Source of the DNA: Spongospora subterranea f. sp. subterranea
Taxonomy: Eukaryota
Assembly: GCA_049724395.1 (NCBI GenBank)
Contig: JAUGWO010000100.1
Location: 1 to 44,102, forward strand
Length of the DNA stretch: 44,102 nt
Direction: 5' to 3'
In this document: one piece after another, positions 10,016-42,543 of the stretch
Numbering within the stretch: position 1 is the first letter of the stretch
Layout of the letters: every line of letters starts with the position of its first letter
Translations under genes and position numbers: made by a program
Notes under the pieces: model-generated
The model's input: the letters and a program-made list of their open reading frames with translations, nothing else
What the model was told of the DNA's origin: nothing
Databases searched by the model: none

Positions 10016-10492
10016 TATTTCAGATAGTCCAGATGATGGTGGTAGACCTTTGTCAATAATACTATGATGACTTTGAATTCCTAATGAAGTTATGATAACA
10101 TCATTTCTAGAATATTCGCCTAGAAAGAATTCGAAGGTCGAAACGTATCAGTGACGGATCGATTGATCGTGTACAACGCAGGACGGTTGTCGATTATGGG
10201 TCTACTGTGAATCCGGGGGATCGTTAAACCCTACTATCACAACTATCGGTCTTTCCATCCGTTTGGCCTTCCAGATAGATTGAAAACCTTCTTCCTTAAT
10301 ATCGTCACCGCCATCAACCTCTCTCAACCCTTTTCAGTGCCTGCTTCTTTTCTCTTTCTCTCTCTTTCGCTCATCCTCTCGTCGTTTCGCCAGATCACCG
10401 TCACTAGAACGTTTTTTTCTGAACTTTGTGTCGATCTCCGGCAATTTGGGCTAACATTTCCTGAGAGCGATTTGTGCAGCTCGATTGTGGGA

Positions 10493-12636: not shown

Positions 12637-13278
12637 CAGCAGAATAACAAAATAACGATTAACAACAATGTTTATAAATAAGAATTTTGACTCCATCGGC
12701 CATCCTAAGTGGTGAATGAACAGTACTAAAGTGTGGGAAGTCTAGCTTTGGCAAGTCCCTACAGCCTCTCACAGACGTTTTCGACCCCAACAATGTTAAC
12801 AAATTAATCCTGGCGATTGAGCTATGTACTTACAGCCATTATTGATGAGGAGGTTTTTGTGAAGGATTCGCTTACATAATCGCCGAAAAAGCCTTGATTG
12901 CCCATGATTGTTCAGGATCTTCTGGCGAGTCATCAAAGAACGACAGCAGTTCAGATCCCTTATTTGATGCTTTCTCTAACTGGTCGATACGTTTTTTTTT
13001 GTTCCAATCGTTATGGCTCACACGTTGTAGCATATGAATAATCAGTCCTTGAGCATAAGGATTAATCATCCCTAATGCCATGAAGTGCGTCACGGCCCCA
13101 TCTACTGCGTGAGTCAAGCAGGATTGATCGACTCCAGGGATGGGCTAATAAACAGATTGAATTGGAACGGATTCCAACGTGAAATAGTACCGGGCGTCCG
13201 TTTTTGTCCAAAATCGTGACAGATTTGATACAGCGCAACAGCCAATGAATAAGATGTTCGCTTGGAAACAGCAATTTA

Positions 13279-15143
13279 TTATCCCCTTTTACGGCGAGAA
13301 CGAAGACGGGTACAAGCCACATGGTCAGGACGGCGCTGTGAACGCAACCGCTCACTAGAAGATTGCACTTGCAAAACCGTCTCCTCTTGCACAATGACGT
13401 CTTCAGTGGCATCAAAACTGATAGATTGACCTTTTTGACCCTGATATGGGACGATTTCGTCGGAGACCGTCATCTCGCAATCACTTTCAGCTTCTTCATC
13501 TTCCACTGACGTGTCTGAACCCCCGTCCCTGCTTGTTGAAGCATGTCCGAACGCGTCTCCTGCTGGACGCTCCAGTTGAGCAGCATAGCAAGCACTATTA
13601 CATTCATGTTCTTGAAAAAACTTGGCAATTGAAGAGGCACCCATGTTGCCAATGCCGAACGTTGATTCAGCATTGGAGATTGATACAATCTCAACGTCAG
13701 TATAGACGCCACCCGCGCCCTGAATGTCTAATGCCATAAACTCGCCGCCGGAGCGACAGAACGAGAAATGGCTGAACGCGGTTGCCTTGATCCGGTCCTT
13801 TTTCGTTCGGGCTAATGTTTTGTTTGTTAAACAGATAATATTACCTATATTTAATGTAGGTATATTTGATGGAGGTTTGAAAAACCTCTACCTGAATTTG
13901 AAACGAACTTGTCGAATCGCCCTTTGATTTGACGCTCGATGATCCAAATCACGCCCTTCCGGCACATCCTGTTGAATGGATTGTTCTTTGCAGGAAACAG
14001 AACATCAATAACCTCCGGCAGGAGTTCGACGACAACGCTGTCACAAAACGTGACCATAAAATCATCATTTTTTACAGCGGCGTTGAACTCGATCGCCATT
14101 TGGGAGCATAATGCTGCCATTTGGACGGCACGTGTCGCTGTGCCTAGCCGGTCATCCAACGGAGAATTGGCCACCTTATATACGACAAGAGCTGATCCAA
14201 ACACCATTGGAAACATAGCTTCCTTATAAACAATCTTGGACTCGCCGTCAGTAATAAGATCTTCCATGTTCGGTACAGGAAATTCCTTCTCGCTTAGAAA
14301 CTGTTGCGACCATTTTTGACCATCGAACTGTCTTAAAATGGCAACTCCAGAGCCTTGCACTGCGGAATCCGATTTTGAATTCTGGTATATATCCTGGAAC
14401 TGAAATTGATCAAGATTGCCGAACGCGCTTGAGTGTACAAGGGCGCTTCCCTTCGTTCCTGTCTTCAATCGCTTGATGACAGAACCGGTGACGTGATTAC
14501 TGTTGTTGTTGCCAAACAACTCGATGGTGCGCAGCGGCTGTTGAATTGGGCCACAGTCTTCACCATTGTCAGGGAGAGTCATATCCCATTCGTTATCAAC
14601 ATTATCCTGTTCATTATCGTGGCTGATTCTGTCATTATCATTGAAGCCATCTTGTGAATGGTCTGATCTCACCAGATGCAACACCTTCTTGCCTCCAGAA
14701 CGAGTGAGGTTGAAAGGAAATTCACAGAATGGCGTATTCTCCTGTATTATTGCACCATCCCCCGTGGTAAGAACGTAAGTGGCCCCAGAGGACCATTTCG
14801 GAACAGGAAATAAACTGGATGCCAATCCATCGATAATATCATAGTATGTGGTGGCCGACAATGCGAAAACGACGTTGATTGCCGGATGATCTGGTAACTT
14901 CGTTGCCTTTTTAGTTCGGGGATCCATCCCTAGCGGATAGGCGGTGACGTTCACCTTGATCTAACATCGGGTTGATCGCCACACCACGCCGACTGCCGCC
15001 TCCGGCACGGCGACGTGACACGTCGGCCCTGCTTCCTTAAATTTCAGAAGCTCGGCTGCGACGGTCTTTTTGACAACATCCCCAAGCGTTGGGCAGGAAG
15101 CCAAGCACTGACCCTGTTGCTGACCACAATGTTGACAGAACAT
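13279..15143 (-). CDS. Alpha-kinase (eEF2K/MHCK-type) with N-terminal Cys-rich segment; in-frame TAG at 14961-14963; intron ~13846-13891
   Basis: VVYK, WIIERQIKGRFDKFVSNSG, AFSHFSF, LDIQG, YTDVEI, FGIGNMG and HECNSAC match alpha-kinase subdomains. N-terminus is MFCQHCG...CP. The 3' end is uncertain and may extend to 12872. Confidence 0.8.
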
Positions 15144-15315
15144 AGACAGACTCGTTGATCAAATAATTGATTAAACCCACCCGACGACGAATCTGTCATG
15201 GGAAGTCCGCTACGGCATTACCTATAGTTTTTTTCTGACGTACTGTAAAATAGTTTTGTTGCTCACAAAAAACATTTTGCGCATAATTTCCGCCCCTTGC
15301 CCTTCTCGGATTCCG

Positions 15316-15335
15316 TAATTTTGGGACAGAGGGAG
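15316..15335. repeat. Solo Stowaway/mariner-type TIR (right end) followed by TA
   Basis: Reverse complement reads CTCCCTCTGTCCCAAAATTA; TA at 15336-15337. No partner TIR found. Confidence 0.55.
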
Positions 15336-15339
15336 TATG

Positions 15340-15461
15340 TATCATGATATTTGCCCCAATATCGCGATATGAACCTGCGCAACATCTGTTTATTGCAATA
15401 TTCAACTTATCACGATATTATCATGATATTTCCACGCAATATTTGGCTTCCAAACGCGACC
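15340..15461. mobile_element. Probable Harbinger/Tourist-type MITE right end
   Basis: Ends CCAAACGCGACC followed by TAA (15462-15464), preceded by several ATC(A/G)(T/C)GATAT subterminal repeats. No left end seen. Confidence 0.45.
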
Positions 15462-16211
15462 TAATAACATAAATAGAAGTCCGGAAGAAATCGGTTGCCA
15501 GTTTTAACACACCCCGTCAAACCGATGACTCCGGTAACTAAATGCAATCAACGATAGGTGCTCCATTGAATGGAATTCTTGGTGTATCGGGTCAGATGGA
15601 AGCTCGATTCCTGAACATAAATAGGAATGAGAAAAGGGTGGCACAGAAGTCATTGGATAGGCACGGCCAGGATTGAATCCTGTGTAAGTTTAGGGTCGTT
15701 AAGCTGAACAGATTCTAGGTTTTGTTGAAGTGTGTCCTTGTCCATCTGGCTTCTTATGCGTTGATTGTCTTCCCCTCCGTTGTGGACGATGTCGTCGCGT
15801 TTGATACTCAGGACGTGAGGACGACTTTCTGAGCATGGACTGGATTGCCTCCATCTTGGCCACCACCAATGCAACCATCTGCAGACAGCTTTGACTGGTG
15901 CTTAGTCGTTCTGCCGAAGTGCAATGCGAAAGCATCCTTCGGTAGTCTTATTGAGAAAGAGTTTTGACTGTAATTATCAACTCAAGTAGGTTCCAAACAC
16001 AGAGATGACATGTGTAACTTCTGTGGGCGATTTGTTAGGTTGTAAGATATTACAATGTCTAAACTAGAGAATTCTCAAAATAGCATGGCTAAAGCGATGC
16101 TGTCGATCGCTCACGACAGCTTGGTTATCAGGTTGATCACTTCAAGATCTTCGGCTCAACCCAACAGCCAGTGGTTGTTTGAAAGAACTTCTACGTCTGT
16201 TTATTTGGCCA

Positions 16212-19200
16212 TCACTGTTGCGATATGACACTCCATTTTGATGTTGGCGCGACGTTGATTGCCACAGACGAAGGTACATCCACAACATGATTACGTCTTG
16301 TGGATGAGATTTCACCAAAATGCGTTAACCGTAGGACAAGCTTGGTAAGTTCGTCGATGACAGCAGGAACAAATGCGAGACCAACAACAAGAGCGTAACC
16401 TTTGACCTCGCTAATATACCTCATGCCAAATATGTCTTGAAACGGAGGCACCAATGCCACAAACCACGTTAATGATAACGATACTAGGACAGATAGATGC
16501 ATGTACTTGTTAGAAAAAAAACCCATCTCATAGAGCGATACACGTTGAGAACGACAGGTGTAAGCTCGAAGCAGCTCAGAAGTGCAAATGTACAGGATTG
16601 TCATTGTCTGGGCCTCTTTATATCCATTCAACTTGGACGAATTGGTATTATGAGACTCGGAGTCGATCCCTTTACCCCAAAAATCACCTCCTAGTTCAAT
16701 GAAAATCAGAGAGAATATAAACAGAGTATGTTGAGTTGCCCTACCAGCAAACCATTGTAAACCGGTGCCATACACAATAACACACATTGTTGTCAGTACA
16801 ATTGTCTACAGCAAAAGAATTAAATTTCGCGTCAAAAAAGGAAGATCAGATTCCTACCTGCACAGAAATCCCCACCCACATGAACCTGTCGATGAGCGGC
16901 TCGTTCCGCCTGCGTGGTGGTCTAAACATTGTGCCTGGATCCGTCTACAAATGGTTACACACATCCGTACTGGCCACTCTCTATTACTCCCACCTTTTCA
17001 ATAGCAAGGGAAATTGCTGGAGCACCATCCGTTGTAAGGTTCAGCCATAAAAATCTGGACCGCATTGAGAGGAACAGGCATGCCAACGCACGTCGTCACA
17101 AATATAAGCATCACTTCTGCTATATTAGTTGAGAGCAGATAAAAAATAAACTTGCTTATGTTAGAATAAATTGTACGACCCTCTTCAATGGCCATCACAA
17201 TTGATGCAAAATTATCGGTAGTAAGGATCATAGCAGACGCGGCTTTGGCCACATCCGTTCCAGTAATTCCCATAGCAATACCAATATTTGCCTGCTCAAA
17301 ACATCAACCGCTACAATCACTGGGAAACCGTAAGGTATTGACCTGCTTTAAAGCTGGAGCGTCATTGACACCATCCCCGGTCATTGCGCAGCAATGACCT
17401 TGGCGCTGTAAGGATTTCACAATAGTTATCTTGTCTTCAGGTTTTGCACGAGCGTAAACATCAGCTACTGCAGTGATAGCGTCAAGGCGGCTGAACTCTG
17501 TTGCTAATGCTGTTAGAATTAAAAATATATGAGAATGAACAAGATCAAGACACCAACAATATCCCAACCTTCATGAATACCAGTATGGTCTGACTTCATC
17601 GTGTCCTTCGATTTTAATTGCTGTTCAAGAGCATCAATTCTGTTACCAATCTCACGAATCTCTTCACAATCTAATGCAGCTGTGGCAGGGGATCCTTTTG
17701 GTATAAGACCTATATTCTCCGCAATCGCCTTTGCGGTTTTGACATAATCGCCAGTAATCATGCAGACACGAACAGATGCATTATGTGCTGCAGCAATGGC
17801 TGGAATCACCTAAAAAAATTTTAGATTTGTATCTCACATAGAGTGGAAACGCATTACCTCTTTCCTTTCTGGGTCAGTAGACGCAAATAGTCCAACAAAA
17901 ATCAAATCGGTTTCCACAGTTTCCGCGGAGTCGTCATTGGGTGATGAAGAAAATGTCCTGAACGCAACAGCTAGAACGCGCAAAGCAGCGGAAGAATAGC
18001 CATCAATAACCTGGACCAATACGTATCACTCAATATCACACTATGAAAACAAGTTAAAAATAACGACATTTGTAATGGCTTCTCTTTCAGTCGATTGCAA
18101 GGATTGAATAACCGGATCACCGGAGGCGTTATTCACTATTTGTGAGTTACACTGTGCTAAGACTACATTTGGGGCACCTAAAAAACATCAAAAATGGGTA
18201 GACAGCGATGACGAGACAAGCATCCTTGCCTTTGACAACAACGATATGAGAAGCGATATTATCGACACCAGGAAACCTTCGCGGGTGAATTTTGGAATTC
18301 TCGCAAACCACAGACATCATTTTCCGAACTGAAGAGAAAGTATTTTCTTTGGTCCTGGTATATTCCTAAACACGCTGTAAGGGGAACTGAAAGAACAAAA
18401 ATTCGGCAAACTACCATATTGACATCTGTCATCGTGATGTTAGCTTTAGCTGCAACGACGACAACGGCTCTATCAGATGTATTTCCAAGACACTCCCAAT
18501 TTCCATTAGCGTCCGCTTGCAGAATCGCATTACTACATAACGCTCCACTTAGCAGCAGAAGACCTAGTCCAGAATCAATATTAGGCACAGCCTGCAAAAA
18601 AAACAATGAGCGCTAAGCGACAAAAATGCAAGTAAATTGGGACCTTGTTGTCATTAGAAAGCGACGTGAAGACCCCATTCGGATTATACCCTTCCCCACT
18701 AACAGAAAAAGTAGATCCAGAGAAGAACAGTTTGACAGTTGTCATAACACCAGCAGTTAATGTCCCTGTCTTATCGGAGCATATTACTGTCGCGCTACCC
18801 AATGTCTCAACCGAATGCAGTCGTCTGATAATGGCGTTTTTGTCAGCCATCCTTTGCATACCCATGGCTAGAGTGATAGTGACCGCAGCAGGAAGCCCTT
18901 CAGGAACAGCGGCGACAACAAGAGAAACCGCCACAATTATCATCTGCAAATAATACGGCTGTTCTGAGCCAGGGTCTGGTGTGCGTTCAGTCAAGATCCC
19001 GATCACCAAAATGCAGACAGAAATCATAATAGATAATATTCCTAGAATCTTGCCAAGTTTTTCCAACTTCTCTTGCAAAGGGGATAAACCAGCCTCCGCC
19101 TGTAATGGCGGTTTCCATCAACATAAAAACAGCTGGGAATGGTGAATACCTCACCTCATTGAGCAGCTTAGCAATTTTTCCCATTCGAGTTGACATTCCG

Positions 19201-20160
19201 GTGCGGACAACCAGCCCTTTACCGCGACCATCAAGAATAACACAGCCCATGTAGACCATATTTTCAGACGTTAAATGAGATTCCTGGGCGGACTCGCCTG
19301 AGTGTTTGGCCTCAGGTGAGAAAACGTAATCGGCATCTTTCAGAACTCCTTCAGATTCACCAGTGAGAGCCATCTCGGCAGACACCAATCCATGAGCGCT
19401 AATTAATCGTATATCCGCAGGGATCTTTTGCCCTGTGGCTAGATTGACAATATCACCAGGGACTAAGAATTTGCTGTCCACAACCTATAGCTGGCCGTTA
19501 ACAGTTGCGAAGCGTATTGCTTGAAAAAATGGGGGCTTACGTTAGGCACACCATTACGAACAACTTCAGCTTTGTCTGAAGACATTGATTCCAACGCCTC
19601 CAAAGCTTTTCCCGCTTTATTTTCTTGAACAACTCCAATTGTGGCGTTCAGAATAATTATAAAAAGAATAGCGGCGCCAGCAACATAATTTCCAAAAATA
19701 AAGGATATAAAACAAGAAACGATCAGCAAAATGACCAGCAGATCACTGAGCTGATCAAGTAACATTCTCCATAACGATGAGGGTGGAGGTTTTTCTAGCT
19801 CATTATTCCCATGCAGCTGGAGTCTGTTGGCAAATTCTTCTTTGGTGAGGCCCTGCGAAAATGGGATGACGTCGCGGTACTAAAAAGAGCACTAATAATG
19901 ACCTGGTCAGTATCGCTCTGAAACGCGTGGACGATATCTAACAACGTGGTAGAAGTCAATTCGGCCTGTTCTGCCTTCACATGATCTGCCAACTTGACAC
20001 GAGCTTCATCATTTCCATGAGGGGGAGCGACCAAGCGCTTGTGCGAGGAACCTAGTCGCTGGAGAGAAAATGTCCTGAGAGAGCCTTGGTGGACCAGTGC
20101 CCTTGATGATCCCTGCCTGGTGATGTCTGGTGGCGCGTTATTACCATGTGCCTCGGTCAT
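16212..20160 (-). CDS. Type II P-type cation-transporting ATPase, multi-exon
   Basis: [72 protein letters not shown] (after removing one extra base near 17050), [11 protein letters not shown]. Confidence 0.93.
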
Positions 20161-24899: not shown

Positions 24900-25346
24900 C
24901 TGGACAGTGCGTCTGCTTTTACATTTAAATGGCCATCTACGTTGATGATATACTAATGGCATACAATTGCAAGACAGTTTGTGAAACAATGATTGGTTCG
25001 CTGTCATCAGAATTTGAAATAACGGACGTTGGGAGTCCCACACTCCTACTGGGAATGAGAATCTCTCGTGATGGTGACACAGGCCCAATTGCTATGGACC
25101 ATTCTTAAAGACACTCTCGCCAGATTCAACATGACCTTATGCAAGACAAGTCCAACTCCAGACCAGCGCAACCTACATCTGTCAAGGAGCATGTGCCCAA
25201 GGTCCACCGAGGAACAAGAAGAGATGAGATCAGTACAGTTCAAGGACCTCATAGGATCACTCTTATGGCTTGCGATGAACACCCGTCCCGATATCGCTCA
25301 GGCAGTCAGATCACTCTGTCGCTTTTCTTCAAATCCAGGGAAACAA
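24900..25346 (+). pseudogene. Old Ty1/Copia element, RT segment (part 1 of 3)
   Basis: AIYVDDILMA, LLLGMRI, FKDLIGSLLWLAMNTRPDIAQAVRSLCRFSSNPGKQ. Interrupted by the LINE. Confidence 0.88.
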
Positions 25347-25906
25347 TTTTTTTTTTTTTTTTTGTGATTGAGTTTGCACTTTTCATGCAGGTCGGCCGGT
25401 CCCACGGCTATTGGGCCTAAGATTCGTTTCTTCGACTCGCGTCTCAGAAGCTCCTCCCAGTATCAGGCTCGCACCCGAAATATAGACCTTCGCCGGTAGT
25501 TCAGCATTTTGGTCGACGCAAAGGGTAGTGTGGGGTTAAAATAGTCCTACATATTCCGTCCCAACTAAAAAACGTACCCGGAAAACTCTTGTATCCGGGA
25601 CACTAAAAATTCCCTAAGGAACACCCTTTGGCCTAACCAGGTCGCATCCTTACTAGACAGCTCGGTTTTTGCATAGAGGTTGTCCTCCTCTTCGGCCTGT
25701 ATTTAGAGAGGTAGCACCTCTTCGCTACGGTTAGGTAGCTGATTTTTTATCGAGGTTTTACTCCTCTTCGGAAAATATTTATCTAGGCTGCCTCCTCTCT
25801 CACTGTCTCGATCGCCGTCTGCCCTTCTTAGGATCCTGTTCATTTCTTGCGAGTAATCCCACAGTGCATTTTCTGCTCGTGTATTCGGATTCGGGTTCCT
25901 GTGGTT

Positions 25907-28900
25907 CTAGATGTAGCACCTCTTTTTCACTGCCCTTCTTAGGATCCTGTTCATTTCTTGCGGGTATTCCCACAGTGCATTTTCAAATGATGAGGTGTTC
26001 AAACCTTTGTACTCTTTCCTGACTTTACTCAACTTTCCTTGTAACGCCTTGCAGTGTAACACCTGATGTTCAATCGTCTCTATTTCCGTATTACACCATC
26101 TGCATATGTTACTGTCATCCATATTCAGGTTCTTCAGGTGATTTCTTGCACAAGAGTGCCCAGTTCGTGCTCTGTTGAGAAGCGGGGTTGTAGGTTCAAT
26201 CTTCCTTTCGTTTAGCGTCATTAATATCTTAAATTTATCCCTTTCTGGGTATCCTTTGAATCTGCTAGCTTGAACTCGTTCTTTGATGTAATCTTTAAGG
26301 TTTTCTCTCTCTCTTTTCTTAAGATGCAGTTTGAACGATGATATAAATGGGTCATGTTGAATTTCATCGCCGTCCATCGATGCTTGCTTTGCTAGTTGAT
26401 CAATGTCATCGCTGTGTCCTATGGGGACTTTCATCTCGTCTTCATTATTGTTGTCGTTTTCCACGTGACTTGGTATAAAGTGTATATCCACCATGTTTTC
26501 TTTTTGTTAATTTCGCTAATTTATCTGCACATTCCGCAACGATAGCGTTCACTCTCCTTGGTTTTATCGGTAAGGATTGTAGTTGACTCATCCATGATAA
26601 GGAATCTGTCATTATGTGGATATGTCTTCCCTCATAGTTCTGGTCTACAGCTATATCTAGTCCACTATTCAGTGCAATAATCTCACATTCATATGATGAT
26701 GTCACTTCTGTTCCTAGTTTAACGGTAATTATCTCTTCGTTGGTCTCGCCTTTTTCATCTCTATTTGTATAATCAATTAGCAGAGCTGCCGCTCCTCCGC
26801 CAACATCCTTATTAAAACTCCCATCTGTCCATAGTTCGATATCTGGGTTTGTCGGCAATAGCTTTCCTTTTTTGTGTTTTTTGATTGCTTTTTCCCTATT
26901 TGAGGAATGGTATTTGACCTTATATAATCCCTCCAATATTCGTGCTGGTATATCAGTCCTAGTATGAACTGCATCATATGTGTCAGGTACTCTCTCTTTG
27001 AGTGCTTTCCATACCTCCCCCTAATGGGGTCCATCCATCGCCATCTCCATTCCAGGCAGCATATTCACTTCCTAATAATGTGTCATTTGCCTGTGCTGAA
27101 AGTACTGTCATTGTTGTCTCTGTGATTATTCTATCCTTTAATAATGGGAATCGTGATATCGCATGTAATAATGGGATTGGTGTCGATGGGAAACATCCTG
27201 TATATGTTCTCATATAGTCTCTATATGCAATTTCCATCGGGTTCAGAGTGGTCTTCATGGTTTGGTGTATTTCCGCTGCAAGCCATGGCAGGTAGTAATT
27301 GAGTTTTCCGCCTATGAATCCTCGACATATTTTTGAAAGGTCGAAACTGGAATTCCAGATTTTTCGTAGCCCTCTCATTAATTTGCATCTGGTTTTAATG
27401 TCCTTTGCTACTTCTTTGAGATCGATTTTGATTGTTGAGTGGTGATTCTCATCATTTGCTCTTAAGGTTGCCCCTAAATACTTGATTGTGTCTGTTGTTT
27501 TGATTTTATGCTCGTTGACAGTTATTTGGTCTCTATGAGCATGTTCATTGAATAATAAGTGGGTTTTCAGCCATTGTATCTTAATGTGGTTTGCTGTGCA
27601 CCAGCTTTGCAGCTTTGAACTCTCTGCCCTCAGTTGATTTTTTACTTCCCATTTGGTTGAATCTGTTGCCCATTGTGTGGTATCATCTACATAAACATTA
27701 CTATTGACCGTTTCTATTGGTGCATCGTAGATATATATAATCCATAATAAGACGCTAATACTGGATCCTTGAGGAATTCCGTTCTCTTGATAATGCGGCT
27801 CTGTAATATTTTTCCTGTGGCACACGTGGAATATTCGCTTTGTCAACCATTGGTCTATCAATAATATTAGGTATGATCTATTCCCATATTTCTCATCTTT
27901 CGTACTAGTAGTGTTCTCTGTACTCTGTCAAAGGCTTTCATAAAGTCATATACAATTAGGGCGAATTGTTGTTCTTTAGCAGCTGCTAATCCTGCATTAT
28001 GCAGCAATCTTAACAATGCATGCGTAGTACTATGAGCGGGTCTGCACCCGAATTGGTTATCAGGTATGTGCTTTTCCGCTTGGTGTCTTATTCTGTGTTC
28101 AATAATCCCTTCTACCAGTTTGGCTATATTAGGCAATAATGATATCGGTCTATATTCACCTGGTTCATCTTTAGGTAATGGTCTGATTTTCGCTATTTTC
28201 ATATCTTGTGGGAAGTATCCTAAATCTATAATATCGTTATTAATTGAATTCAGCAACGCGTATTTGTTCATATCATTTTTGCATAATTCTTTGATGAGAC
28301 TATTCGGTATTCCATCAATTCCTCCTGCTGATTTCCTATTGGCCTTAACAACTGCCCTTTCTAGCTCTCTCAAAGTAATCTTTTCCGGTGGTTGAGAGAT
28401 TCTCTCTTTCCATAGTTTTTCAATGAGTAGATCGTGTTCACGCTGTTCATGCTCATTGAGGTTAAGGTCTGCTTCGCTGTAGATTGCCTCAAACTGTCAG
28501 CTATTTTTTCCGCTTCATCTTTTGCATCAACTTTCTGTGTTTCGTACTTTCGTCTCCGTTTGTTGGTTTGAGGACTTATCTTCTTTACCAGGCTCCATAT
28601 TTTGGCTCCTGTTTCGTCCATACATGCCTGTTTAACTTCCGTTCTAAGGCTTGCATTTTTCGCTTTCTGAAATTGTTTCCTCAATGATATTTCCGCTTTT
28701 CGCATTTCGGTGTGCTGCCGTGCAATAAATTGCTGGCTTTTGCATTTCAGTATGGCTTCCTGGTGTTTGCGCTTGAGTTTATTTCGCAAGTTTAACGCAA
28801 TTTTGAGTTTCAGTGGTCCAGAATTTGCATCTATTCTGTCTAACATATTTGTGCTTGATGCTATTTTGCAATAGGTCAATGAAAGCTGTTAGTCCCATGT

Positions 28901-31159
28901 TCTTGCTTTCAACATTCTGCAGTTCCTCTTCTAACGCTTTCGTTGTCGCTCGTGTGTCAATTCGTTGTATTCTTTTACGGCTAGGGGGAATCCTTTGCGT
29001 CGATTTTCTTCTAATTGTAGTATCTATTGTTGTCGGTGAATGGTCACTGCCTAGCTCTGCGTGCACGTCCCATTGTAAGATCTCCTTTGCCATCTGTCGA
29101 TTGGCAATGGTGATATCTAATGAGTTGTTTCCTCTTGTTGGGCGTTCCGGGTTGTTCATCAATTTGCATTCTTCCAATATGCTGTCTAGGTATTTGTGAG
29201 TTTCGTCATGGTGGATTCCAAACCGTCTATCTTTGGTGTTGAGGTCACCTGTTAGAAGTATCGGTTCATCTCGCATTTCTACGAATTTGCCGATTTGTTT
29301 CCAATATGTTTTTCTAGTATTTCGATCTATATCCGGTGGTATATATATGTGAATTAATATCATTTCACTATATATTTTTACTATTTGTGTCATGATTCCG
29401 TCGTTCCCAAACGTTTGTATTGCAGGAATGCGCATCACATCTACATTTACATGGTCCCTCCAAAAAATTCCAGCTTGGGTGTACCGGTCATCGGCTTCGT
29501 GGTTTGGGAAATCGTCTACTTGGCGTCTATGGTGAAGTTCTGATATACATATTACATCGACGCGGTTGGTGTTAGCAAATCGAGACAGTTCTTTTGATTT
29601 TTGTTCGCTTAGGGAGCAGGCGTTCCATTGAGCGATTTTTAAGCTCCTGGTTGTTCTTATTTTTCTGGTTTTGGTATTGGTTTTCATGAAATATTCAGTT
29701 ATTTTCATCTGCCGTTTGTGTGTTTTAGTTCCGTTCAGGTTTTTGTCCGATGTGTCTGCTATATTGTCTTCCTTGTTGTCTGGTTCTAGTATATTTCCGA
29801 TCAATTTGGTGAGTTCGTAGTGGCTCATCTGGCTTGTTGGTGTCTGTTTTGAGGCTGTTTTTCGCGCTGTTTCATTGTCTGCAACTTCTTTGCATTGGCG
29901 CTCGCTGTTGGTAAGCCGTCTTTTATACTGCGTTTCAGTGCCGTCCTTATCTATCAGCAATGTTCGCTTTTTTGTGCAGATTTGTTTAGAGTGCGTTTGA
30001 TGTTTTTCATATTTGGCACGTTGAGTGGGTTGGTCGTCGGAATCGTCGCATGATCGGTGCCTTTTCGGATTTATGTTTTTATCGTGTCTCATCATTTTGT
30101 CTAGCGATGGTTTTATCATAAATTGCTGTTTGGAATTATCATTTCTAACATTTTGCGTTGCTGAGCTGTCTGTTTTGTTTGTTAATTTGTACTGATCAAT
30201 GTAGAGGTCACATTTGTCTGGTGTCATCATACCGCTATTATTCCATTCACTAGCCGTTGTTTCTATAGGGAAAAGGGTCCCATAATGGTTCAAGTCTTGA
30301 TGTCTCATTGGTGTTGATGGTTTCCCATGCTTGTGATGTAACAAGTAAATTGTTTTGGTCCATGGTGTTACATCACGTGACTTTGGTAACGTGTTCTCTA
30401 TCCATTTCTGTATATCTGTTATGAGCGTTGGATTCGTCTGACTTACTACTATTATGTTCATTTTGAATTTGTATGCAGCTATGGTGAGTTCGAACAACCC
30501 TCCCCATTGTCTATCGATACTCATTATATTCAGATATTCATCCAATCCTATGCTGTCATTGTTTGGCAGCGATCCTATATAGGGTTTTAATTTTTTAGCA
30601 ATGGTTCTTCCTTGCTCAGGATTTCTAGCGAATTCACATATTTCCTTTCGTAGGTTTTGCACTGTCATATTCGGGATCGCTCCTGATGCTCTGATCGCCT
30701 CGAAAGCGCAGTTTCCTATTCCGATGACATCTCTAAATACGTATTTCGTATTCTTTATCTCCACCATGCATGATGTATGGAGTCCTTTGCTGTTTCCGCC
30801 ACTGTATGGTGTTGATTGTTCCAGTGTTTTGTTTTCACTTGTTTTCCATACTTTGCTGTTATTTGGTTTTTTCCCACGTTTTACATTCAACCACACCCTA
30901 ATTGGAAACAATTTTACCATGTTCCAATTCCAGGTATCGAGTGATGCGAAGAATTGGTTGTCGCAGTGGACGGCATCTAATTTTAGTGTTCCTTTTGGCC
31001 ATTGCCACCTATAAATGGTTTTATTGTCAGATTGCCACCAATTAATGGTCGTGTTGTCAGTTTGCCACCAATAAATGGTGGTATTGTCGGATTGCCACCA
31101 AAGAATGGTAATATTGTCGGATAGCCACCAGTAAATGGTAGTATTGTCGGTTGAGTCAT
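25907..31159 (-). CDS. LINE polyprotein: GG-repeat leader, OTU protease, PIP box, APE endonuclease, RT, RNase H, Zn-knuckle (several frameshifts)
   Basis: OTU: GNCAFEAI, WGGLFEL, NHY. APE: QWNACSL, ICISE, TGDLN, LDIT, SDH. RT: YRPISLL, QFGCR, DFMKAFD, GIPQGS, YVDD, KYLG. RNase H: WTDGS, ECEIIAL, TDSLS, IPSH, DQLAK. Knuckle: CRWC...ETIEH..LHC. Confidence 0.85.
31001..31150 (-). repeat. Five tandem 30-bp units encoding [PL]T[IT]xP[FL]xGG[NKY]
   Basis: 30-bp periodicity is directly visible. From ATG 31159: MTQ PTILPFTGGY PTILPFFGGN PTIPPFIGGK LTTRPLIGGN LTIKPFIGGN GQKEH*. Confidence 0.92.
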
Positions 31160-31523
31160 TCATACAGCACCGACTTCTAATAATTTTTCTGTCAGTAAAG
31201 TACCGACTTCCAAAATATTTTCCGTCAGTGCAGGAATTGACAACAAGGACCTGTCCGCTCATCTCATACCAATGATAAGTATTCAATGAACGGCGAGAAC
31301 AGCTTTTGACGGCTGTTCTAAAATTTGGCCCGCTCTGAAGACTCAGAGGAAATTGGGAGTGCAGCTGACACTTCAGAGTTCTAGTCATCGTCAGGAAGAC
31401 TACCCCGCCAGGCATCCCTAGACTGTCACCCTTGGTGCCAGCCCGACTCCCCACCACCAGCAACACGATCGATCGCCGCCAGCATCTCGTCGATTCGTGA
31501 CTTGCGCAGTTGATTGCGGAGTG

Positions 31524-31964
31524 CCAGGGAAACAACACTGGACGACAGCCAAGCACATCCTCCGATATTTGAATGGTACTCAAGCACTCGGTATCCGCTA
31601 CTCTCGCGACGTCAATTGTTCAGGTATCCAAGCTTTTTCTGACAGTGATTGGGCAACTGCCCTGATACTAGAAGATCGACAACGGGGTATGTATTAATGT
31701 ACGCTGGAGGGCCAATATCCTGGAGGTCCAAGTTGCAAAAATCGGTAGGGACGTCATCGGTCACTGCTGAATATCAGGCACTTTACGACACTACTCGGGC
31801 CTGTCTACCACAAAATAGGCTTTACTTTCGATGGGCCGACTATGGTCAACGAAGACAACCAAGGGTGTATTGCAATGTCACAAAATAACAGGACGGATGC
31901 GTTGACGAAGCACATTGATGTGAAATACCATTTCACACGTGAGCAAATTAACGAACGACAGATC
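31524..31964 (+). pseudogene. Old Ty1/Copia element, RNase H segment (part 2 of 3)
   Basis: HILRYLNGT, FSDSDWA, RRSTTGYV, ISWRSKLQ, TAEYQAL, EDNQGCI, TKHIDVKYHFTRE. Confidence 0.9.
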
Positions 31965-32203
31965 TGTTGAAACTGATGACTGACGCGCTGCAACTGGCTA
32001 CATGCCGAGCTGTAATGGTTAAGGGCGATGCGTTTCCTCCCTGACTCTGAGACCCGAATCCCCGGTCTGATGATCTCTTGTGCTGTCCTAATACACAATC
32101 AGAGTTCTAATTAGCCTGCTGACATCATGACAGAAACTGGTGGAATCACGGAGGCAGCCTCTCCGACCGGCCGAACGACCAGCGATGCGCAAACTCCCCA
32201 TCA
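31965..32203 (+). repeat. 5' LTR (239 bp)
   Basis: TGTTG...CATCA, near-identical to 36196-36435. Confidence 0.96.
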
Positions 32204-35200
32204 GGTTATGGGCCCAGTTACGCCTGCCGACGTATCGCGCAAGGTCAAGATGTCTGCATTCCGAGGAACGAAGCTAAACGACGAGAACTGGACCCAGTTC
32301 GAATTTGCATTCACAGCACACCTACGCCAGCTGGGGCTACATGAGGCCCTACTGAAGGGGGCGTCGGCGAACGTCGAGGCGGCGTGTTTCTCGGTCCTGA
32401 TTCAGGCCCTATCCGAGGACCAGTACCCTCACATCTACGACTGCACAACAGCAAGAGACGCGTGGGCGGCCCTGAAGGACACACACCGCGCCCAGAACGC
32501 TCGGGCGGCCTTCCGCTACTCAATGGAGTACCGAACAAAGAAGCTAGGCGAGGACGAGCCAATAATCAAGCACCTGGAGATACTAATGGAGGCAGTGCGG
32601 CGGTTGGACGCAGCGACTGGGACCAAGGTCGGAGACATGGACTTCATGACGACGGCGTGCCTGTCGGTCCAGCACGACCCCCGTTATGTGGCGACCGTAG
32701 AGGTGATGATGCAGAACTCGGTCGCGATGTCAAGGAAGAAGGTCATGGACGTGTTGGTCGATACAGAGAAACGCCACAAAATGGTGACCGGTGTTTCGTC
32801 TTCGTCCCAGCTGCAGATGGCGATGCCGGCCACAGGAAGGCGCGGCATGCCGAACTCGAACAAGTCGAGAGGCAAGGGGAACCGGAAGGGAAACTGTCAC
32901 GCATGCGGAAAGGCGGGCCACTGGGCTCGAGACTGTCGGCAGAAGCCTGTGTCCTCGCCAAACGAGTCGGCCAGGAGGGCAGCGACCCAGGAGTTCCTGT
33001 TTTCGGCGATCTCAGCGGATCAGAGCTGCAGTACTCACAGCTGGCTGTTCGATAGTGGCGCCTCTTCCCATATGGTTACGGACGTCGGTATCCTGACAGA
33101 TGCCGAGCGCCTGGACCAAGCCTCAACCGTAACACTCGGCGATGGACACGGAGTGACCGCGACACACAGAGGGACGGTGCAGCTTCGAAACGGCGTCAAA
33201 CTACAAAACGTCCTGTACGTCCCAGGTCTTAGTGAGAATCTGTTTTCCATAGGAAAGGCGTGCGATACCGGTGGTGCCGAGGTGGTCTTCACCAAGGACA
33301 GATGCACGATCTCGGTCAACGGGGAAGCTGTTTTCGACGTCCCTAAGAGAGAGGGCGTGTTCCGCCTGCGGATCGGTCTCGCCAACGGCCGAGGTAGCGC
33401 CGATCAGGAGACTGCCCTGGCGGCGAAGGGTGTCCCGTCGGGCGGGCGCAGCACAGAAGATCTTCACCGTCGATATGGACACGTCAACTTGAACACGCTG
33501 ACCCTAATGTCGAGAACCGGAATCATCCCAAAGATGACCGGGAGTGTGGATGCGCAGCGAAGATGCGAATTGTGCCTCGAGGGGAAGATGGCGAGGGCAC
33601 CGATCCCCAAGAAATCGGAGCGGCAGCCAGCCGAGGCTGGCACCGTCGTTCACAGCGACCTGTGCGGCCCAATGAGAACCACGTCGATACAAGGCAACAC
33701 CTACATGGCGATGTACGTGGACGGGCGGTCGAACTGGACTTACGTTACGTGCATGAAGCTGAAATCGGAGCAGAAGATCAAGTTTAAGGAATATGAGGCC
33801 ACAATGAAGCGACAGTTCGGTGTCGACATCAAGGTCCTTCGGTCGGACGGGGGCGGCGAATATTCCGACGGGGAGTTCCAGACGTATTTGAGGAGCAAGG
33901 GGATCGCCTGGCAGCACTCGGCCCCAAACACACCGCAACAGAACGGGAAGGCGGAGCGGGCGAACAGGACCATCATGGAGATGGCAAGATGCCTGTTGCT
34001 GGAGGCCCGGCTTCCACACCAGTATTGGGAGTTCGCGGTCCTAATGGCAGCGTATATCAGAAACCGAACACCGACGCGCGCAAACGCGAACCTTCAGAGC
34101 CCGTTCGAGGTCCTGTACGGCGAAAAACCTGATCTGAAGGACATGCCAAAATTTGGTGCTCGGTGTATGGTCCACATCCCCGATCAGAAGCGCGGGAAGC
34201 TGGACGTAAAGGCGCGGCCCTGTCGGTTCCTGGGCTATGCCAGCGGCATGAAGGCGGCTGTGTTTGAGGATATGGAGTCCAGGAAGTGCTTCGTATCGAG
34301 AGACAGCGTCGACTCACAACGTCGGCCTGACGAGGAGCCAGTCGAGGGCGCTGAAGACTTCGAGGAGGTCGCGATCGCGAAGGCGCCCATCGCACGACCC
34401 GAACAAACCCAGGTCGACGGCCCACACCCTGGAAGCGGCTCAGAGCCCGAAACATTGCAACCTGCAGAGGACGAGCCCAGTTCAGATGAAGCTGCGACAG
34501 GGGACCTCACTCAACCACAGCCCGACGGTGCCGAAACAAGACAAGTGAGAAGATCCGTCCGGGAGCGGCGGGCACCGACGTTTTTCCACGAGGAATACGC
34601 TACGTTGGCGACCGAGGCGAAGGCACCAGAGCCCGAAAGCGTGGAGCAGGCCCTCAAGGACGACAGCTGGAGGGCGTCAATGCAGGAGGAGTTCAGTTCG
34701 CTGGAGCGAAATGGCACGTGGGAGCTAGTGCCACTGCCAAAGGGCAGGAAACCGGTGTCGGGAAAGTGGTGCTTCAGGGCGAAAACAGACTCGGGTGGAA
34801 ACGTGGTCAGGAAGAAGTCCCGATACGTCGCTCGTGGGTTCACTCAACAGCCGGGCGTCGATTTCGACGAGACGTTCTCTCCCGTCGTGTCCCTAACATC
34901 GTTGAGAGTCTTGTTGGCGATCGCAACAATGCTAGACATGGAGGTTCAACAGTTGGACGTCGACTGCGCGTATCTGTACGGCCACCTCGACGAAGAGATC
35001 TATCTAGAACAACCGCAAGGCTTCGCGAAGAAGGACGAGGACGGTCGGGACCTGGTCTGTAGACTTCGAAAGGCGATATACGGCCTGAAGCAAGCAGGCC
35101 GGGTGTGGTGGAAACAGATAGATGAAGACCTACGTAAGAACGGATTCGCGAGAGCCAACGGCGACTTGTGCATCTATCACCGACGCGGCCACGACGGAGA

Positions 35201-36201
35201 GGTGACCTTACTGGCCCTGTACGTGGATGACTTAGTGGTAGCGTCGACGTCGAAGTCAGCGATTAACGACTTCGGGGCCTACCTACGAGCCAAGTATTCG
35301 ATGAAGTCAATCGGGGACATCGAGTACGTGCTGGGATTGGCGGTGAAACGCGACAGAAAAGCGAAGACGCTGTTCCTGTCGCAGAAGGCCTACGCCGAGG
35401 TCGCGTTGAAGAGATTCAACATGATGGACAGCAAACCTTACGGAAGCCCGGTTTCGGCGGGAGTCGTGGTGAAGGAACCCGGGAAAGGCGGCACTATCGT
35501 GTTCCCGTACCAGCGGGCGATCGGGACACTGTTGTACCTGGCCAACGGCACGAGACCGGATCTGGCCCACGCGGTGGCATGGGCGGCCAGGTTCTCACAC
35601 AGTCCGACGGTGCAACACGTACGGGCAGTCAAGCGGATTTTCCGCTACCTGAAGGGAACCGTTGCCATGGGTATTGGGTTCGGCGGGAGCACTAACATGA
35701 ACTTGAAACTGATCGGTTACGCGGATGCGGATTATGCAGGATGTACGGAGACGCGGCGCTCGACCTCAGGATACGTGTTCCTGATGAACGGCGGCCCTGT
35801 CAGTTGGTCAAGCCGACGGCAAGAGTGCATAGCACTGTCAAACGGCGGAGTCGGAGTATATTTCTTTGAGCGCGGCGGCGAAGGAGGCCCTATGGCTGCG
35901 GAACCTGTTGTCGGAGATAGGCCAAGGGCAAACGACTGCGACAACTATCATGGAAGACAATCAGAGCACGATTGCGCTGGCCACGAACGGCAGGTCGAGG
36001 AAACGAACGAAGCATATCGACGTTCGGTACCACTTCGTACGGGAGACGGTCGAGGCGGACCTGGTCAAGCTGGTTTACTGCCCCAGCGAGGAAAACGTTG
36101 CGGACGTGTTCACCAAAGCCCTACCCGTCGGCAAGTTCCGGGAGTTCCGCGACAGGCTCATGTGCGGCGGTACCAGCTGTACGCGCGGGCGGGAGTGTTG
36201 A
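32127..36201 (+). CDS. Copia gag-pol polyprotein with one +1 base near 35841
   Basis: CHACGKAGHWARDC (gag), WLFDSGAS (protease), HRRYGH..CELC, HSDLCGP/RSDGGGEY/AERANRT (integrase), LYVDD (RT), YADADYAG (RNase H). Removing one A restores ALSTAESEY...KHIDVRYHF, with the stop inside the 3' LTR. Confidence 0.93.
32204..32217 (+). other. Primer-binding site GGTTATGGGCCCAG (initiator tRNA-Met half-molecule type)
   Basis: Lies immediately 3' of the LTR; same PBS type as Drosophila copia. Confidence 0.85.
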
Positions 36202-36435
36202 AACTGATGACTGACGCGCTGCAACTGGCTACATGCCGAGCTGTAATCGTTAAGGGCGATGCGTTTCCTCCCTGACTCTGAGACCCGAATCCCCGGTCTG
36301 ATGATCTCTTGTGCTGTCCTAATACACAATCAGAGTTCTAATTAGCCTGCTGACATCATGACAGAAACTGGTGGAATCACGGAGGCAGCCTTCTCCGACC
36401 GGCCGAACGACCAGCGATGCGCAAACTCCCCATCA
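36196..36435 (+). repeat. 3' LTR (240 bp)
   Basis: Matches the 5' LTR; preceded by GCGGGCGGGAG. Confidence 0.96.
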
Positions 36436-39840: not shown

Positions 39841-42543
39841 TTATTGTTGCCGTTGATGCAACGTTCCCTGGTACTGGTCCCACATAGATTTGGCAATCCC
39901 ATCTTTCATTCGTCCCGCTTCAATTGAATAACAATCAGGTACTTCGTGCTGTTCGTGGTTTCTGCCACGTGCTACTCGGCGACAAAGTTGTTGATCTCGA
40001 CGATCAGCGTCTCTTTCGGATTGCTCTAAGATATACGGGTCCCGCTCCAATCCCATGATGATGTTATGCAACGCACAGAGCGAGTAAACATTTTTGGCTT
40101 GCGAGGTGAATGGGTATTCTGGAGAAGACATGAAAATCGGAAATCGCTTCTTTAAAACACCAAAGATTCGCTCAATGCAGTTGCGTTGCTGTGCGTGACG
40201 AAGATTGTACAATTCTTTGGCATTCTGGGGACGTTGGTATGGTATGGTATACAAAGGTTCGCGGGTTCTTATGGGTCGGCTAATCCTGTGTACTACCAGG
40301 TTTTCCCTACTTCCGCCTGGCCGCTACAAGTAGCTTGGGTAGCCAATGAAGGAACCTATTAGACCAGCTGGATTCAGCAACATAACCTGTCCTACGACCA
40401 TACAGAATGGGACCTGCCCCCACCCGATTACATTGCCTATCCAGAGTTTCGAGTTTACTGCAAGCAGCTCACTCTTCCACATTCATTATGGCCATGTGGT
40501 CAGACCCAGTAAAGATTAGACATATCTAGATAAAGCAGCCTGCTTTTTCAGCTTTTCGCAAAATTTTCGTCATGGCCTTCTCGTGGCTCCAGATTGCTGT
40601 GGTGAAAGTAGTTGCCGGTAGTGTCTTGTAATGTCGTCTGCATTTCTTGAGTCGCTTTTTGAATACTTCGCATTGTAACACCTGATGTTCGATTGTTTCG
40701 GGATGTTTGTCGCAGTGTCTGCACTTGTTCGTGTCTTCCATTCCAATGTTGCTGAGGTGCTGTCTGCATCTGCGCTGTCCAGTTCGCGCTCTGTTAATTA
40801 GCATGTGTGGTATGGATTCACCTGGTAGTTTGCGAAACAGGTCTCTATCCGGGTAGTTTTGGAAGTGGCTGCATTTGACGTTCGCCTTCAAATACTGTTT
40901 TAATTGACTTCGTTCGTATTTCTTTAGTTGTAGTTTAAAGGATGACAGAAATGGTGCATGCTCTATTTTGGTCCCAATATTCGCCACATTTTTTGCTAGT
41001 TGATCAATTTCATTGCTTCGTCCTATAGCTTTCGAGTTGTCATTGTCAGATGTGCCACTTGTGTAATGGACATGACTTGGAACGTAGTGAATGTGTATCT
41101 GATTACGACGGGATAGTTTCGCTAGTAGTCGAGCAGAGTCTGCCACAACTGCATATACTCTTCGAGGTTTGATAGGTAGTGATTGAAATTGACTTACCCA
41201 GGATAACGAGTCTGTCATTATGTGGATGGTTCTGTTTTTAAATCTCTGATCGATGGCCAGTTCTAGCAAAGCATGTAATGCAATGATCTCGGCTTCCTAA
41301 CTCGAGGTGATTTTGCGATTCAGTTTGATTTGCGACTTTTCCTTAATGTAATTTGCCGCTACACCTTTGGTGCTTTTGTATTGCAAGAGGGCAGCAGCAC
41401 CCCCTTTTTTCCCTTTGGTAAAACTGCCATCAGTCCAGATTTCTACATCCGGGTCACGTGGAAGAAGTTCGTTTCTTTTGTGCTTTTCAATTGCCTCCTT
41501 TCGCGTGGTTTTGTGTAATTAATTTACTGTATAGAGAGCTTTGAGAATATTTGGGGCAATATCTACCGTTGCATGTATGGTTTTGTATCCTTTCGGGACT
41601 CTCTCTCTAAGAGCTTTCCAGACTTGGCCAAGTGGAGACCAGCCATCGCCGAATCCTGTCCATTTGGTGTAGTCCTGTCTCTGGGGACGTTGATAGCCCA
41701 ACGCCCACTCTTTAAGATGGTAACGAACCCCTCGGTAAGGTGTCAGGAGATTAGTTTTAAGACCGTATCCCGCATCACCTAAATACATTTTTCCTGCTGG
41801 GACTGAGAAACCTTTGAAGAGAAGGGCATCATTGAGTACGCCGCCGTCCGATGCTGAGCCCTCCCAGCCGGCGAGCACATAAAAGAATCGCAAATCAAAT
41901 GAGCAGGCGGCGAGCACGCTGTTTCTTCCCGTTCCAGTCTTTATTCTGGCTCATGAAGCTCTTGCGATTGCGGAACGGCCTAGCTCGACCAAAAGGGGGC
42001 GATGCAGGTATGTGCGTTTCCGTCCAGCGCTCCGATGCAGTCTTGGAAGAAAGGAAACATTTTTGGATTGCTGTGGATTTCCCAAGGGCAGACATTTGCA
42101 AAAGACAGGACGACGACTTCAGGGTATATAACAATCAAAGCTTCCAGAACTTCATTAAAGGACTTGGTTATAGTCCATCCACTTCTTTGGAACCTCTCTT
42201 GCGCTTGTCGATTCGAGGATGCATGACCGACGATGTAGAGGAATGTCGCCAATTTCTCTTTCGCAGAAACAAACCTGCTTGTCGCGAGAGCGTTTCTCCT
42301 CTCCATCATTTCAAGAATTGCCTCAAATGTTTCCGACAGCACACGCATTTGATTGCGGAAGCGGCGACGGTTTCCAATCAGAAGTTCTTCGACCCACTCT
42401 TCGCCACTCATTTGGGAGGTATGGCAACGTTCCTTAACAGCGTAATTCACTGACCACCATGCCAAACTCGCGCAAACCTTCAAGTTGCTTCATATTACTA
42501 TGGCGCGCGTTTCAAACTCCGTAAAAATGACGTTGACCTCCAT
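39841..42543 (-). pseudogene. Harbinger transposase interrupted by a LINE
   Basis: QAQERFQRSG, DCIGALDG, LAACSFD, AGWEGSASD, YLGDAGY, TPYRGVRYHLKEW...YQRPQ|NAKELYNLRHAQQRNCIERIFGVLKKRF. Confidence 0.9.
40237..41679 (-). mobile_element. 5'-truncated LINE related to 25347-31523 (RNase H and Zn-knuckle)
   Basis: 13-bp TSD TCTGGGGACGTTG at 40224-40236 and 41680-41692. Shares GDGW(S/T)PLG, IMTDSLSW, LPIKPRRV, NRARTG and ETIEHQVL with the full-length LINE. Tail is (ATACC)n rather than poly(A). Confidence 0.92.

What the first reader, a model, noticed from the sequence alone, without database searches (positions are those of the whole stretch)
30280..30745. OTU cysteine protease fused N-terminally to APE-RT-RNase H in a LINE lacking ORF1
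Seen: VIGIGNCAFEAI (Cys codon 30708-30710), QWGGLFELTIAA and LNHY (His codon 30285-30287) are in frame with the APE domain. The TSD-defined 5' end leaves only ~365 nt of UTR, with no gag-like ORF1 visible. The usual Asp of DGNC is Ile. Known: OTU domains occur sporadically in transposons such as Helitrons and in viruses as deubiquitinases. Inference: this domain processes the polyprotein or counteracts ubiquitin-based host restriction.
Basis: partly seen in the sequence, partly recalled or inferred. Interest (0 to 1): 0.72.

Follow-up and report, generated by a model that had tools for sequence, protein, structure and literature searches.

The report
LINE retrotransposon fused to OTU protease
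A jumping gene (LINE), likely from a root-infecting protist, carries an OTU protease domain at the front of its copying enzyme that likely strips ubiquitin tags during insertion, while this copy has lost about 1.5 kb that probably held the usual first gene.

Summary
The OTU domain is real. It passes the Pfam cut-off, folds confidently (pLDDT 90) as an OTU, and shares one stop-free frame with the APE endonuclease of a poly(A)-tailed LINE (APE-RT-RNase H-CCHC). Cys 30708-10 and His 30285-7 are as described and are kept in relatives down to 38% identity; variants among copies are mostly synonymous; a 35%-identical relative joins OTU end to APE start. The D-to-Ile change is family-wide, and His+2 is Gly.

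'No ORF1' is not supported. The true TSD is 25335-46/31524-35, so the element starts at 31523. Contigs of public runs hold 1501 extra letters at 30983/30984 that this copy has lost, where ORF1 would sit. ORF2 likely starts near ATG 30920. A PIP-box-like motif precedes the APE.

Best reading (inferred): a deubiquitinase tethered to ORF2p, acting at the PCNA-bound insertion site or protecting element proteins. Polyprotein processing is less likely. None of 29 other clade rows has an OTU hit, so it looks like a lineage-specific gain. My searches found OTUs described in Ginger and Helentrons and other proteases in LINEs, but no OTU in a LINE. Clade not assignable here.

The parts
25347..31523 (-). 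LINE copy (6177 bp here; about 7.7 kb in the family)
   Evidence: TSD, poly(A), family depth and loose ends
31524..31535 (.). 5' copy of the 12-bp target-site duplication
   Evidence: identical to 25335-25346; splits an older copia pol frame; empty site seen as loose end
25335..25346 (.). 3' copy of the target-site duplication
25347..25363 (-). poly(A) tail, 17 nt
31002..31523 (-). 5' region with five 30-nt tandem units (31002-31151); ATG at 31002
   Evidence: part of the family by depth and contig pieces
30983..30984 (.). junction where this copy lacks 1501 letters of the family (likely ORF1)
   Evidence: record 24 of X7 and of X5 spans it; loose ends in X2, X15, X18
30895..30973 (.). 79-nt arm whose 80%-identical inverted partner lies in the missing piece; covers the candidate ORF2 start
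   Evidence: X5 record 24 (record 1747-1825, 16 other letters)
30918..30920 (-). first in-frame ATG after the junction, likely ORF2 start
   Evidence: relatives keep an LHxxC motif upstream of Met 30767 and start 29-68 residues before the domain
30264..30785 (-). OTU protease domain
   Evidence: Pfam, AlphaFold pLDDT 89.9, Foldseek, profile vs PDB
30708..30710 (-). catalytic Cys (predicted)
   Evidence: Cys in 16 of 18 alignment rows with a letter there
30285..30287 (-). catalytic His (predicted); His+2 is Gly
   Evidence: His in 14 of 15 rows with a letter there
30729..30731 (-). Asp seven residues before the Cys, candidate third triad residue
   Evidence: Asp in 15 of 18 rows; geometry not measured
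29712..30260 (-). about 180-residue Lys/Thr/Asp/Asn-rich linker
29688..29711 (-). PIP-box-like motif QxxIxxYF (consensus recalled)
   Evidence: similar motif in 32 of 50 relatives with sequence before the APE
29040..29633 (-). APE endonuclease
   Evidence: Pfam PF03372 35 bits, cut-off 24.5; GDLN and SDH motifs
27463..28175 (-). reverse transcriptase, broken at 27876 in this copy
   Evidence: PF00078 in two successive frames
26385..26843 (-). RNase H, broken at 26501 in this copy
   Evidence: PF00075 E 1e-4, under its cut-off; above cut-off in intact relatives
26045..26161 (-). C-terminal CCHC zinc finger; ORF2 stop at 25907-25909
   Evidence: PF13966 E 1e-4, under its cut-off

Best explanation
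A LINE family has an OTU protease domain fused to the N-terminus of its endonuclease-reverse transcriptase protein, and the domain likely works as a tethered deubiquitinase that removes ubiquitin from host or element proteins where the LINE particle acts. Shown: OTU fold with Cys and His, in-frame fusion, conservation, synonymous excess, the 1501-letter loss in this copy. Inferred: the missing piece encodes ORF1; ORF2p (about 1670 residues) starts near ATG 30920; the PIP-like motif docks ORF2p on PCNA, and the flexible linker lets the OTU reach ubiquitinated PCNA, repair or chromatin factors at the nicked target, or remove degradation tags from ORF1p/ORF2p; the Asp at Cys-7 would stand in for the absent His+2 acid.
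For: Pfam above cut-off. Model pLDDT 89.9, pTM 0.86; all 35 PDB rows shown by Foldseek are OTUs, best OTUD3 at E 4.7e-6. Cys in 16 of 18 and His in 14 of 15 rows with letters; the Trp of the WGG motif and a near-invariant Arg are kept; PMC7396840 (passages) describes a conserved Trp and basic residue needed for DUB activity, and equating them is my inference. 22 of 36 listed variants in the frame are synonymous against 20% expected, none in the Cys or His codon. P0160 joins OTU end, PIP-like motif and APE start; P0156 has OTU plus a PIP-like motif. The Cys-3 Asp gives only a backbone amide to the oxyanion hole in EAV PLP2, whose third residue Asn263 is Cys-7, and the N-terminal OTU of the nairovirus polymerase does not self-cleave (PMC3968130, passages). 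L1 ORF2p needs PCNA through a PIP box, and the PCNA ligase Rad18 restricts L1 (PMC6203705, passages).
Against: No activity or substrate was tested. Two canonical positions depart (Ile at Cys-3, Gly at His+2), so the enzyme may be slow or dead. An acid at Cys-7 also occurs in nairovirus OTUs, so its conservation does not prove a catalytic role. None of the 143 hits held a whole OTU and a whole APE in one protein. The variant table showed 40 of 157 rows, and these come from a few related contigs, so they are not independent. The PIP motif is a regex match without a chance control. Close relatives without an OTU have intact ORFs, so the domain is not needed clade-wide. The missing 1501 letters could not be retrieved.
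Confidence: 0.5

Rival explanations
1. The domain is a catalytically weak or dead OTU kept as a ubiquitin-binding module that targets ORF2p to ubiquitinated chromatin or PCNA.
For: Ile/Val replaces the Cys-3 Asp in the window and its 5 closest aligned relatives, and His+2 is Gly/Ala; selection on a fold does not need catalysis.
Against: The Cys is kept in all 5 closest aligned relatives and the His in both of those that reach it and in P0271 and P0160. OTUs work with incomplete or re-sited triads (PMC3968130, PMC7396840; passages).
Confidence: 0.2
2. The OTU is a processing protease that frees the APE-RT part from its N-terminal extension, as the OTU-fold proteases of arteriviruses and tymoviruses process polyproteins.
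For: Viral precedent (PMC3968130). OTU-less relatives carry, just before the PIP-like motif, a PPPG motif (29 of 50) or a GG after an ORF1-like region (P0201, P0237), which look like separation sites; the OTU could replace them.
Against: No GG, PPPG or NPG in the window's linker, and no GG or PPPG after the OTU in P0124, P0156 or P0160. The ORF2 frame is stopped in the visible letters of the missing piece (read by eye, table 7), so ORF1 is unlikely to be fused. That PPPG or GG are cleavage or skipping sites is untested.
Confidence: 0.17
3. The element has no ORF1; the 1501 extra letters are non-coding or a nested insert in some copies.
For: Only about 150 of the 1501 letters were seen; the piece holds an inverted repeat arm; no ORF1 protein was found. 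Ingi elements lack ORF1 (PMC3708506, passages).
Against: The extra piece is in the dominant family contigs of X2, X5 and X7 and shows as a loose end in X15 and X18. Its size and place fit an ORF1, and one frame is open in every visible stretch. Two distant relatives have ORF1-like coiled-coil regions before the APE.
Confidence: 0.12
4. The OTU is a neutral passenger from a DNA transposon or host gene that happened to land in frame.
For: The nearest non-family OTUs are unnamed proteins, some with transposon-like tails (P0192, P0232; by eye). None of the other 29 clade rows has an OTU hit.
Against: Kept in frame with catalytic residues across relatives 38-84% identical and synonymous excess. Capture explains origin, not retention.
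Confidence: 0.05

Closest known systems
NeSL and Utopia-1_TSP non-LTR elements with an N-terminal Ulp1-like protease (PMC4640811, passages)
   Same: A ubiquitin-like-protein protease at the N-terminus of the RT protein of a non-LTR element.
   Different: Ulp1 rather than OTU; restriction-like endonuclease, target-specific. Here APE plus RNase H.
Dualen/RandI LINEs (C48 peptidase in cryptophyte Dualen, PMC5029228 passages; Josephin-like protease recalled, from no call)
   Same: Cysteine protease upstream of APE-RT-RNase H-CCHC in one ORF.
   Different: Different protease family; Dualen also has a C-terminal restriction-like endonuclease, not detected here.
Helentrons and Ginger1 transposons with OTU domains (PMC2836005, PMC4067079, PMC6431247; passages)
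   Same: PF02338 OTU carried by a mobile element; Helentrons also carry an APE; ubiquitin-pathway role proposed, untested in the passages seen.
   Different: DNA transposons with Rep-helicase or DDE integrase; no RT, poly(A) or LINE-type TSD.
Nairovirus L protein (PMC3968130, passages)
   Same: OTU at the N-terminus of a large polymerase, acting as a deubiquitinase without self-cleavage; best sequence-profile matches in PDB.
   Different: RNA virus; keeps the Cys-3 Asp (alignments); 12-18% identity by Foldseek; no sign of descent from it.
Ingi/L1Tc clade (PMC3708506, passages)
   Same: APE-RT-RNase H-zinc finger order (Ingi architecture recalled).
   Different: Ingi lacks ORF1 and has a 2A-like peptide before the APE. 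This family has a 1.5-kb ORF1-sized region and no NPGP motif in ORF2.

Membership tests
OTU protease (PF02338) | Profile score above the curated cut-off | tested here: met
   30.4 bits vs 23.3; ESM Atlas top hits OTU at 0.93
OTU protease (PF02338) | OTU fold | tested here: met
   pLDDT 89.9; 67 PDB matches at E<=1e-3, all 35 rows shown are OTUs
OTU protease (PF02338) | Catalytic Cys then His, conserved | tested here: met
   16 of 18 and 14 of 15 rows with letters, of 20 aligned
OTU protease (PF02338) | Asp three residues before the Cys (typical, backbone role) | tested here: not met
   Ile/Val in the window and 5 closest rows; Asp in 9 of the other 12 rows with letters
OTU protease (PF02338) | Third triad residue (acid/Asn at His+2, or upstream of the Cys) | tested here: inconclusive
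   His+2 is Gly; Asp at Cys-7 in 15 of 18 rows; model coordinates not available to measure
OTU deubiquitinase | Cleaves ubiquitin isopeptides | not testable with these tools
   needs an assay
APE-type non-LTR retrotransposon | APE and RT in one ORF | tested here: met
   each of 5 breaks tested lies in the overlap of successive stop-free frames and family contigs lack those indels
APE-type non-LTR retrotransposon | Poly(A) tail, TSD, no LTRs | tested here: met
Ingi clade | No ORF1 | tested here: inconclusive
   1501 family letters at the ORF1 position, mostly unseen
Ingi clade | 2A-like peptide before the APE | tested here: not met
   no NPG in the linker or elsewhere before the APE (by eye)
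Ingi or other I-group clade | RT groups with named reference elements | not testable with these tools
   no labelled references; the RT nests in a 30-row clade of unnamed elements, SH-aLRT 100, quick tree
Helentron | Rep-helicase, no RT | tested here: not met
   no such Pfam hit in the element's six frame pieces; RT present
NeSL/Utopia/Dualen | Restriction-like endonuclease and Ulp1/C48-type protease | tested here: not met
   protease is OTU; ORF2 ends about 45 residues after the CCHC finger

The most novel reading that the evidence does not exclude
The first LINE armed with its own deubiquitinase: an OTU with a re-sited triad, tethered beside a PCNA-binding motif, that erases PCNA or repair-factor ubiquitin at the insertion site to beat ubiquitin-based restriction, within an undescribed protist LINE clade whose members swap OTU, PPPG and GG modules at the same N-terminal slot.
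Probability: 0.25. Interest if true: 0.78.

Novelty: new variant of a known kind. Interest (0 to 1): 0.5.

Why it matters
Ubiquitin-type proteases recur in unrelated mobile elements (Ginger, Helentrons, NeSL/Utopia, Dualen), but the passages read leave their role as conjecture. An OTU fused to a young, homogeneous LINE's ORF2p near a PIP-like motif gives a compact, well-folded domain on which to ask whether such proteases counter host ubiquitin control of target-primed reverse transcription. It also shows how a deleted copy and a chance TSD can fake an ORF1-less element.

Tried and rejected
No own genome is held. Retrieval of the missing 1501 letters failed: exact pattern in metagenome contigs, 0 matches; related-locus scans of metagenome, genome and viral contigs, 176, 57 and 49 pattern matches with none confirmed; protein search with the antisense arm, no candidate. 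Word-index search with the OTU among longer proteins found nothing; the exhaustive search did. Single-sequence fold was useless, pLDDT 36. phmmer of the single domain vs PDB gave only E>=0.05. VIA-align jobs were never run, so there is no second aligner. The careful RT tree did not finish; the quick tree is reported. The OTU tree is poorly resolved, so no donor is named. TSD candidate 30904-30915 was rejected; either 12-mer arose in 1 of 2000 shuffles, so its presence remains unexplained. A ubiquitin-like domain before the GG in P0237 is only a 0.84 lead with no Pfam hit. Transcription: contigs of oligo-dT libraries X17 and X18 cover parts of the element, and X1 has far higher word depth over 31050-31450 than over ORF2, but contigs cannot show expression, so this is not counted. 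No complex prediction was run (enzyme-substrate pair; no eukaryotic reference). Earlier findings: nothing in 3 look-ups. Two clade papers were not held.

Full report
1. Observation. The codons at 30708-30710 and 30285-30287 are Cys and His on the minus strand. They lie in one stop-free frame, 28779-31619, that also holds the APE domain. The 180-residue stretch scores 30.4 bits on Pfam OTU, cut-off 23.3. A fold from a 20-row alignment is confident (pLDDT 89.9, pTM 0.86). Foldseek finds 67 PDB matches at E<=1e-3; all 35 rows shown are OTUs, led by OTUD3 and nairovirus OTUs. The viral library agrees where names are informative, as does a profile search of PDB sequences, E 3e-13. The domain is real.

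2. The element's ends. Two 12-mer repeats flank the poly(A) end. The copy at 30904-30915 lies inside the family body. The copy at 31524-31535 is the TSD: the flanks on either side belong to one copia pol reading frame, contigs in X2 and X5 show the empty site as a loose end at 31524, and 5 X2 contigs leave the window at 31523 with unlike flanks. The copy spans 25347-31523.

3. The missing piece. I laid 7 of the 24 runs listed, in two calls. One contig each in X7 and X5 covers 31523-30984, runs on for 1501 letters absent from the window, then covers 30983 onward. These two records have the same coordinates and may be one data set filed twice. X2 gives separate support: two contigs run 1098 and 428 letters past the junction from either side. 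X15 and X18 show the loose end at 30984. No listed piece crosses the junction as the window does, but the tables were cut (2071 and 439 pieces not shown). Only about 150 of the 1501 letters are visible. Read by eye, and assuming the count is exact, the ORF2 frame is stopped at the start and middle of the piece, the frame of the ATG at 31002 may close in the middle, and the third frame is open wherever seen. Size and position fit an ORF1; that is inference. Five attempts to fetch the piece or related loci failed.

4. State of the family. Downstream of the APE this copy has single-base indels at 28812, 28490, 27876, 27360, 27329, 27017 and 26501, which the high-depth contigs lack. The five that separate long frames each fall in the overlap of successive stop-free frames, and the span from ATG 30920 to the stop comes to 1671 codons with the net indel. 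Several sit in homopolymers, so they may be assembly errors or decay of this copy; the intact copia ORF next door argues against a high error rate everywhere. Long contig pieces differ from the window by few letters (5 in 1285; 4 in 1892), so the family is young and homogeneous.

5. Conservation of the fusion. An exhaustive search with the OTU-APE frame gave 143 hits. The closest diverged OTUs are 84, 71, 63, 56 and 38% identical. All five keep the Cys and have Ile/Val at Cys-3; the two that reach the His keep it, as does P0271. All five keep an LHxxC-like motif upstream of Met 30767, so coding starts earlier; ATG 30920 is the first in-frame start after the junction. P0160 matches the OTU end (31% over 131 columns) and the PIP-APE start (50% over 76) in one protein. 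P0156 has the OTU (36% over 181) followed by a PIP-like motif. No hit held both whole domains, a real gap in the evidence. Of the 36 variant rows inside the frame, 24 are at third positions and 22 are synonymous, against 20% expected; only 40 of 157 rows were shown, and they come from few contigs.

6. Context in the clade. The RT, read with X at its break, nests in a 30-row clade of unnamed elements (SH-aLRT 100, quick tree, 71 rows). None of the other 29 rows hits an OTU profile. 21 of them have 40 or more residues before the APE, several are near-duplicates, and the two nearest (P0001, P0129) lack that region, so they say nothing. Among 50 stored relatives with such a region, 29 have a PPPG motif and 32 a PIP-like motif before the APE (regex, no chance control, cluster members included). 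The OTU therefore looks like a gain in one branch. The only organism-named close relatives are from Spongospora subterranea (P0143, P0271, P0146, P0272), so the host is likely a plasmodiophorid; host genes were not used to test this. The nearest non-family OTUs are unnamed, and the OTU tree does not resolve a donor.

7. Mechanism. Shown: fold, Cys/His, fusion, constraint. The Cys-3 Asp supplies only a backbone amide in EAV PLP2, whose third residue lies seven before the Cys (PMC3968130, passages), so Ile there need not kill the enzyme. His+2, the usual acidic site (PMC7396840, passages), is Gly here and non-acidic in 13 of 15 rows; Asp at Cys-7 is kept in 15 of 18 and may serve instead, though nairovirus OTUs have it too. 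Inferred: ORF2p binds PCNA through the PIP-like motif, as L1 ORF2p does, and L1 is restricted by the PCNA ligase Rad18 (PMC6203705, passages); a deubiquitinase on a 183-residue linker would be placed to undo such marks or to protect the element's proteins (0.5). Rivals: binding-only module (0.2), processing protease (0.17; no conserved site in the linker, ORF1 probably not fused), neutral passenger (0.05).

8. Prior knowledge. OTUs are described in Ginger1 transposases and Helitrons/Helentrons (PMC2836005, PMC4067079, PMC6431247; passages). Non-LTR elements with other cysteine proteases are described: Ulp1-like in NeSL and Utopia (PMC4640811, passages) and C48 in a Dualen (PMC5029228, passages). 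Ingi elements lack ORF1 and carry 2A-like peptides (PMC3708506, passages). PMC5718144 (passages) had nothing on this. Six searches pairing OTU or protease terms with non-LTR terms listed no paper reporting an OTU in a LINE; two searches listed 30 of 979 and 30 of 51 papers. Subscription journals and Repbase reports are not covered, two clade papers were not held and no supplements were read, so a prior record is possible.

9. Verdict. A real, selected OTU fusion in the ORF2 of a young LINE family; the 'no ORF1' claim comes from a deleted copy and the wrong TSD. New variant of a known theme; interest 0.5.

Noticed in passing
P0128, P0133, P0144 and other clade relatives: OTU-less relatives share an EEAxDxIxRLPPPG-type motif just before the PIP-like motif and APE (PPPG in 29 of 50), often after a hydrophobic stretch. 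It sits where 2A peptides sit in Ingi but is not a 2A; possible stalling or skipping signal.
   Followed up: partly
P0201, P0237: Two distant relatives have one ORF with an ORF1-like region and a domain ending in GG about ten to twenty residues before the PIP-like motif; ubiquitin-like only as a 0.84 Atlas lead, no Pfam hit.
   Followed up: partly
window 30895-30973: An inverted partner of this arm lies 427 letters upstream inside the missing piece; the pair could fold over the candidate ORF2 start at 30920. The rejected TSD candidate lies in this arm.
   Followed up: partly
window 40224-41692 (-): A second, 5'-truncated LINE of the same clade (RNase H and zinc finger, about 50% amino-acid identity) with a 13-bp TSD at 40224 and 41680, inside a transposase-like frame.
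   Followed up: partly
window 31965-36435 (+): Intact copia element, LTRs 99% alike, 1386-codon ORF, next to and probably nested in the older copia that the LINE also splits.
   Followed up: no
window 253-5173: DDE_3 (Tc1-like) element with 30-bp inverted repeats at 253 and 2970; a second copy of its right end at 5025-5173 encloses NDC10_II (Crypton-like, label recalled) frames: possible composite transposon.
   Followed up: no
window 25819-25873: The 3' UTR repeats 55 nt of the ORF2 end (96%); family contigs break around it.
   Followed up: no
window 10211-19600: Intron-split host genes: G-alpha, alpha-kinase, P-type cation ATPase.
   Followed up: no
window 31050-31450: Run X1 has word depth about 200,000-330,000 here against 456 for the main ORF2 contig; could be an abundant short transcript or derivative, but contigs cannot show this.
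   Followed up: no
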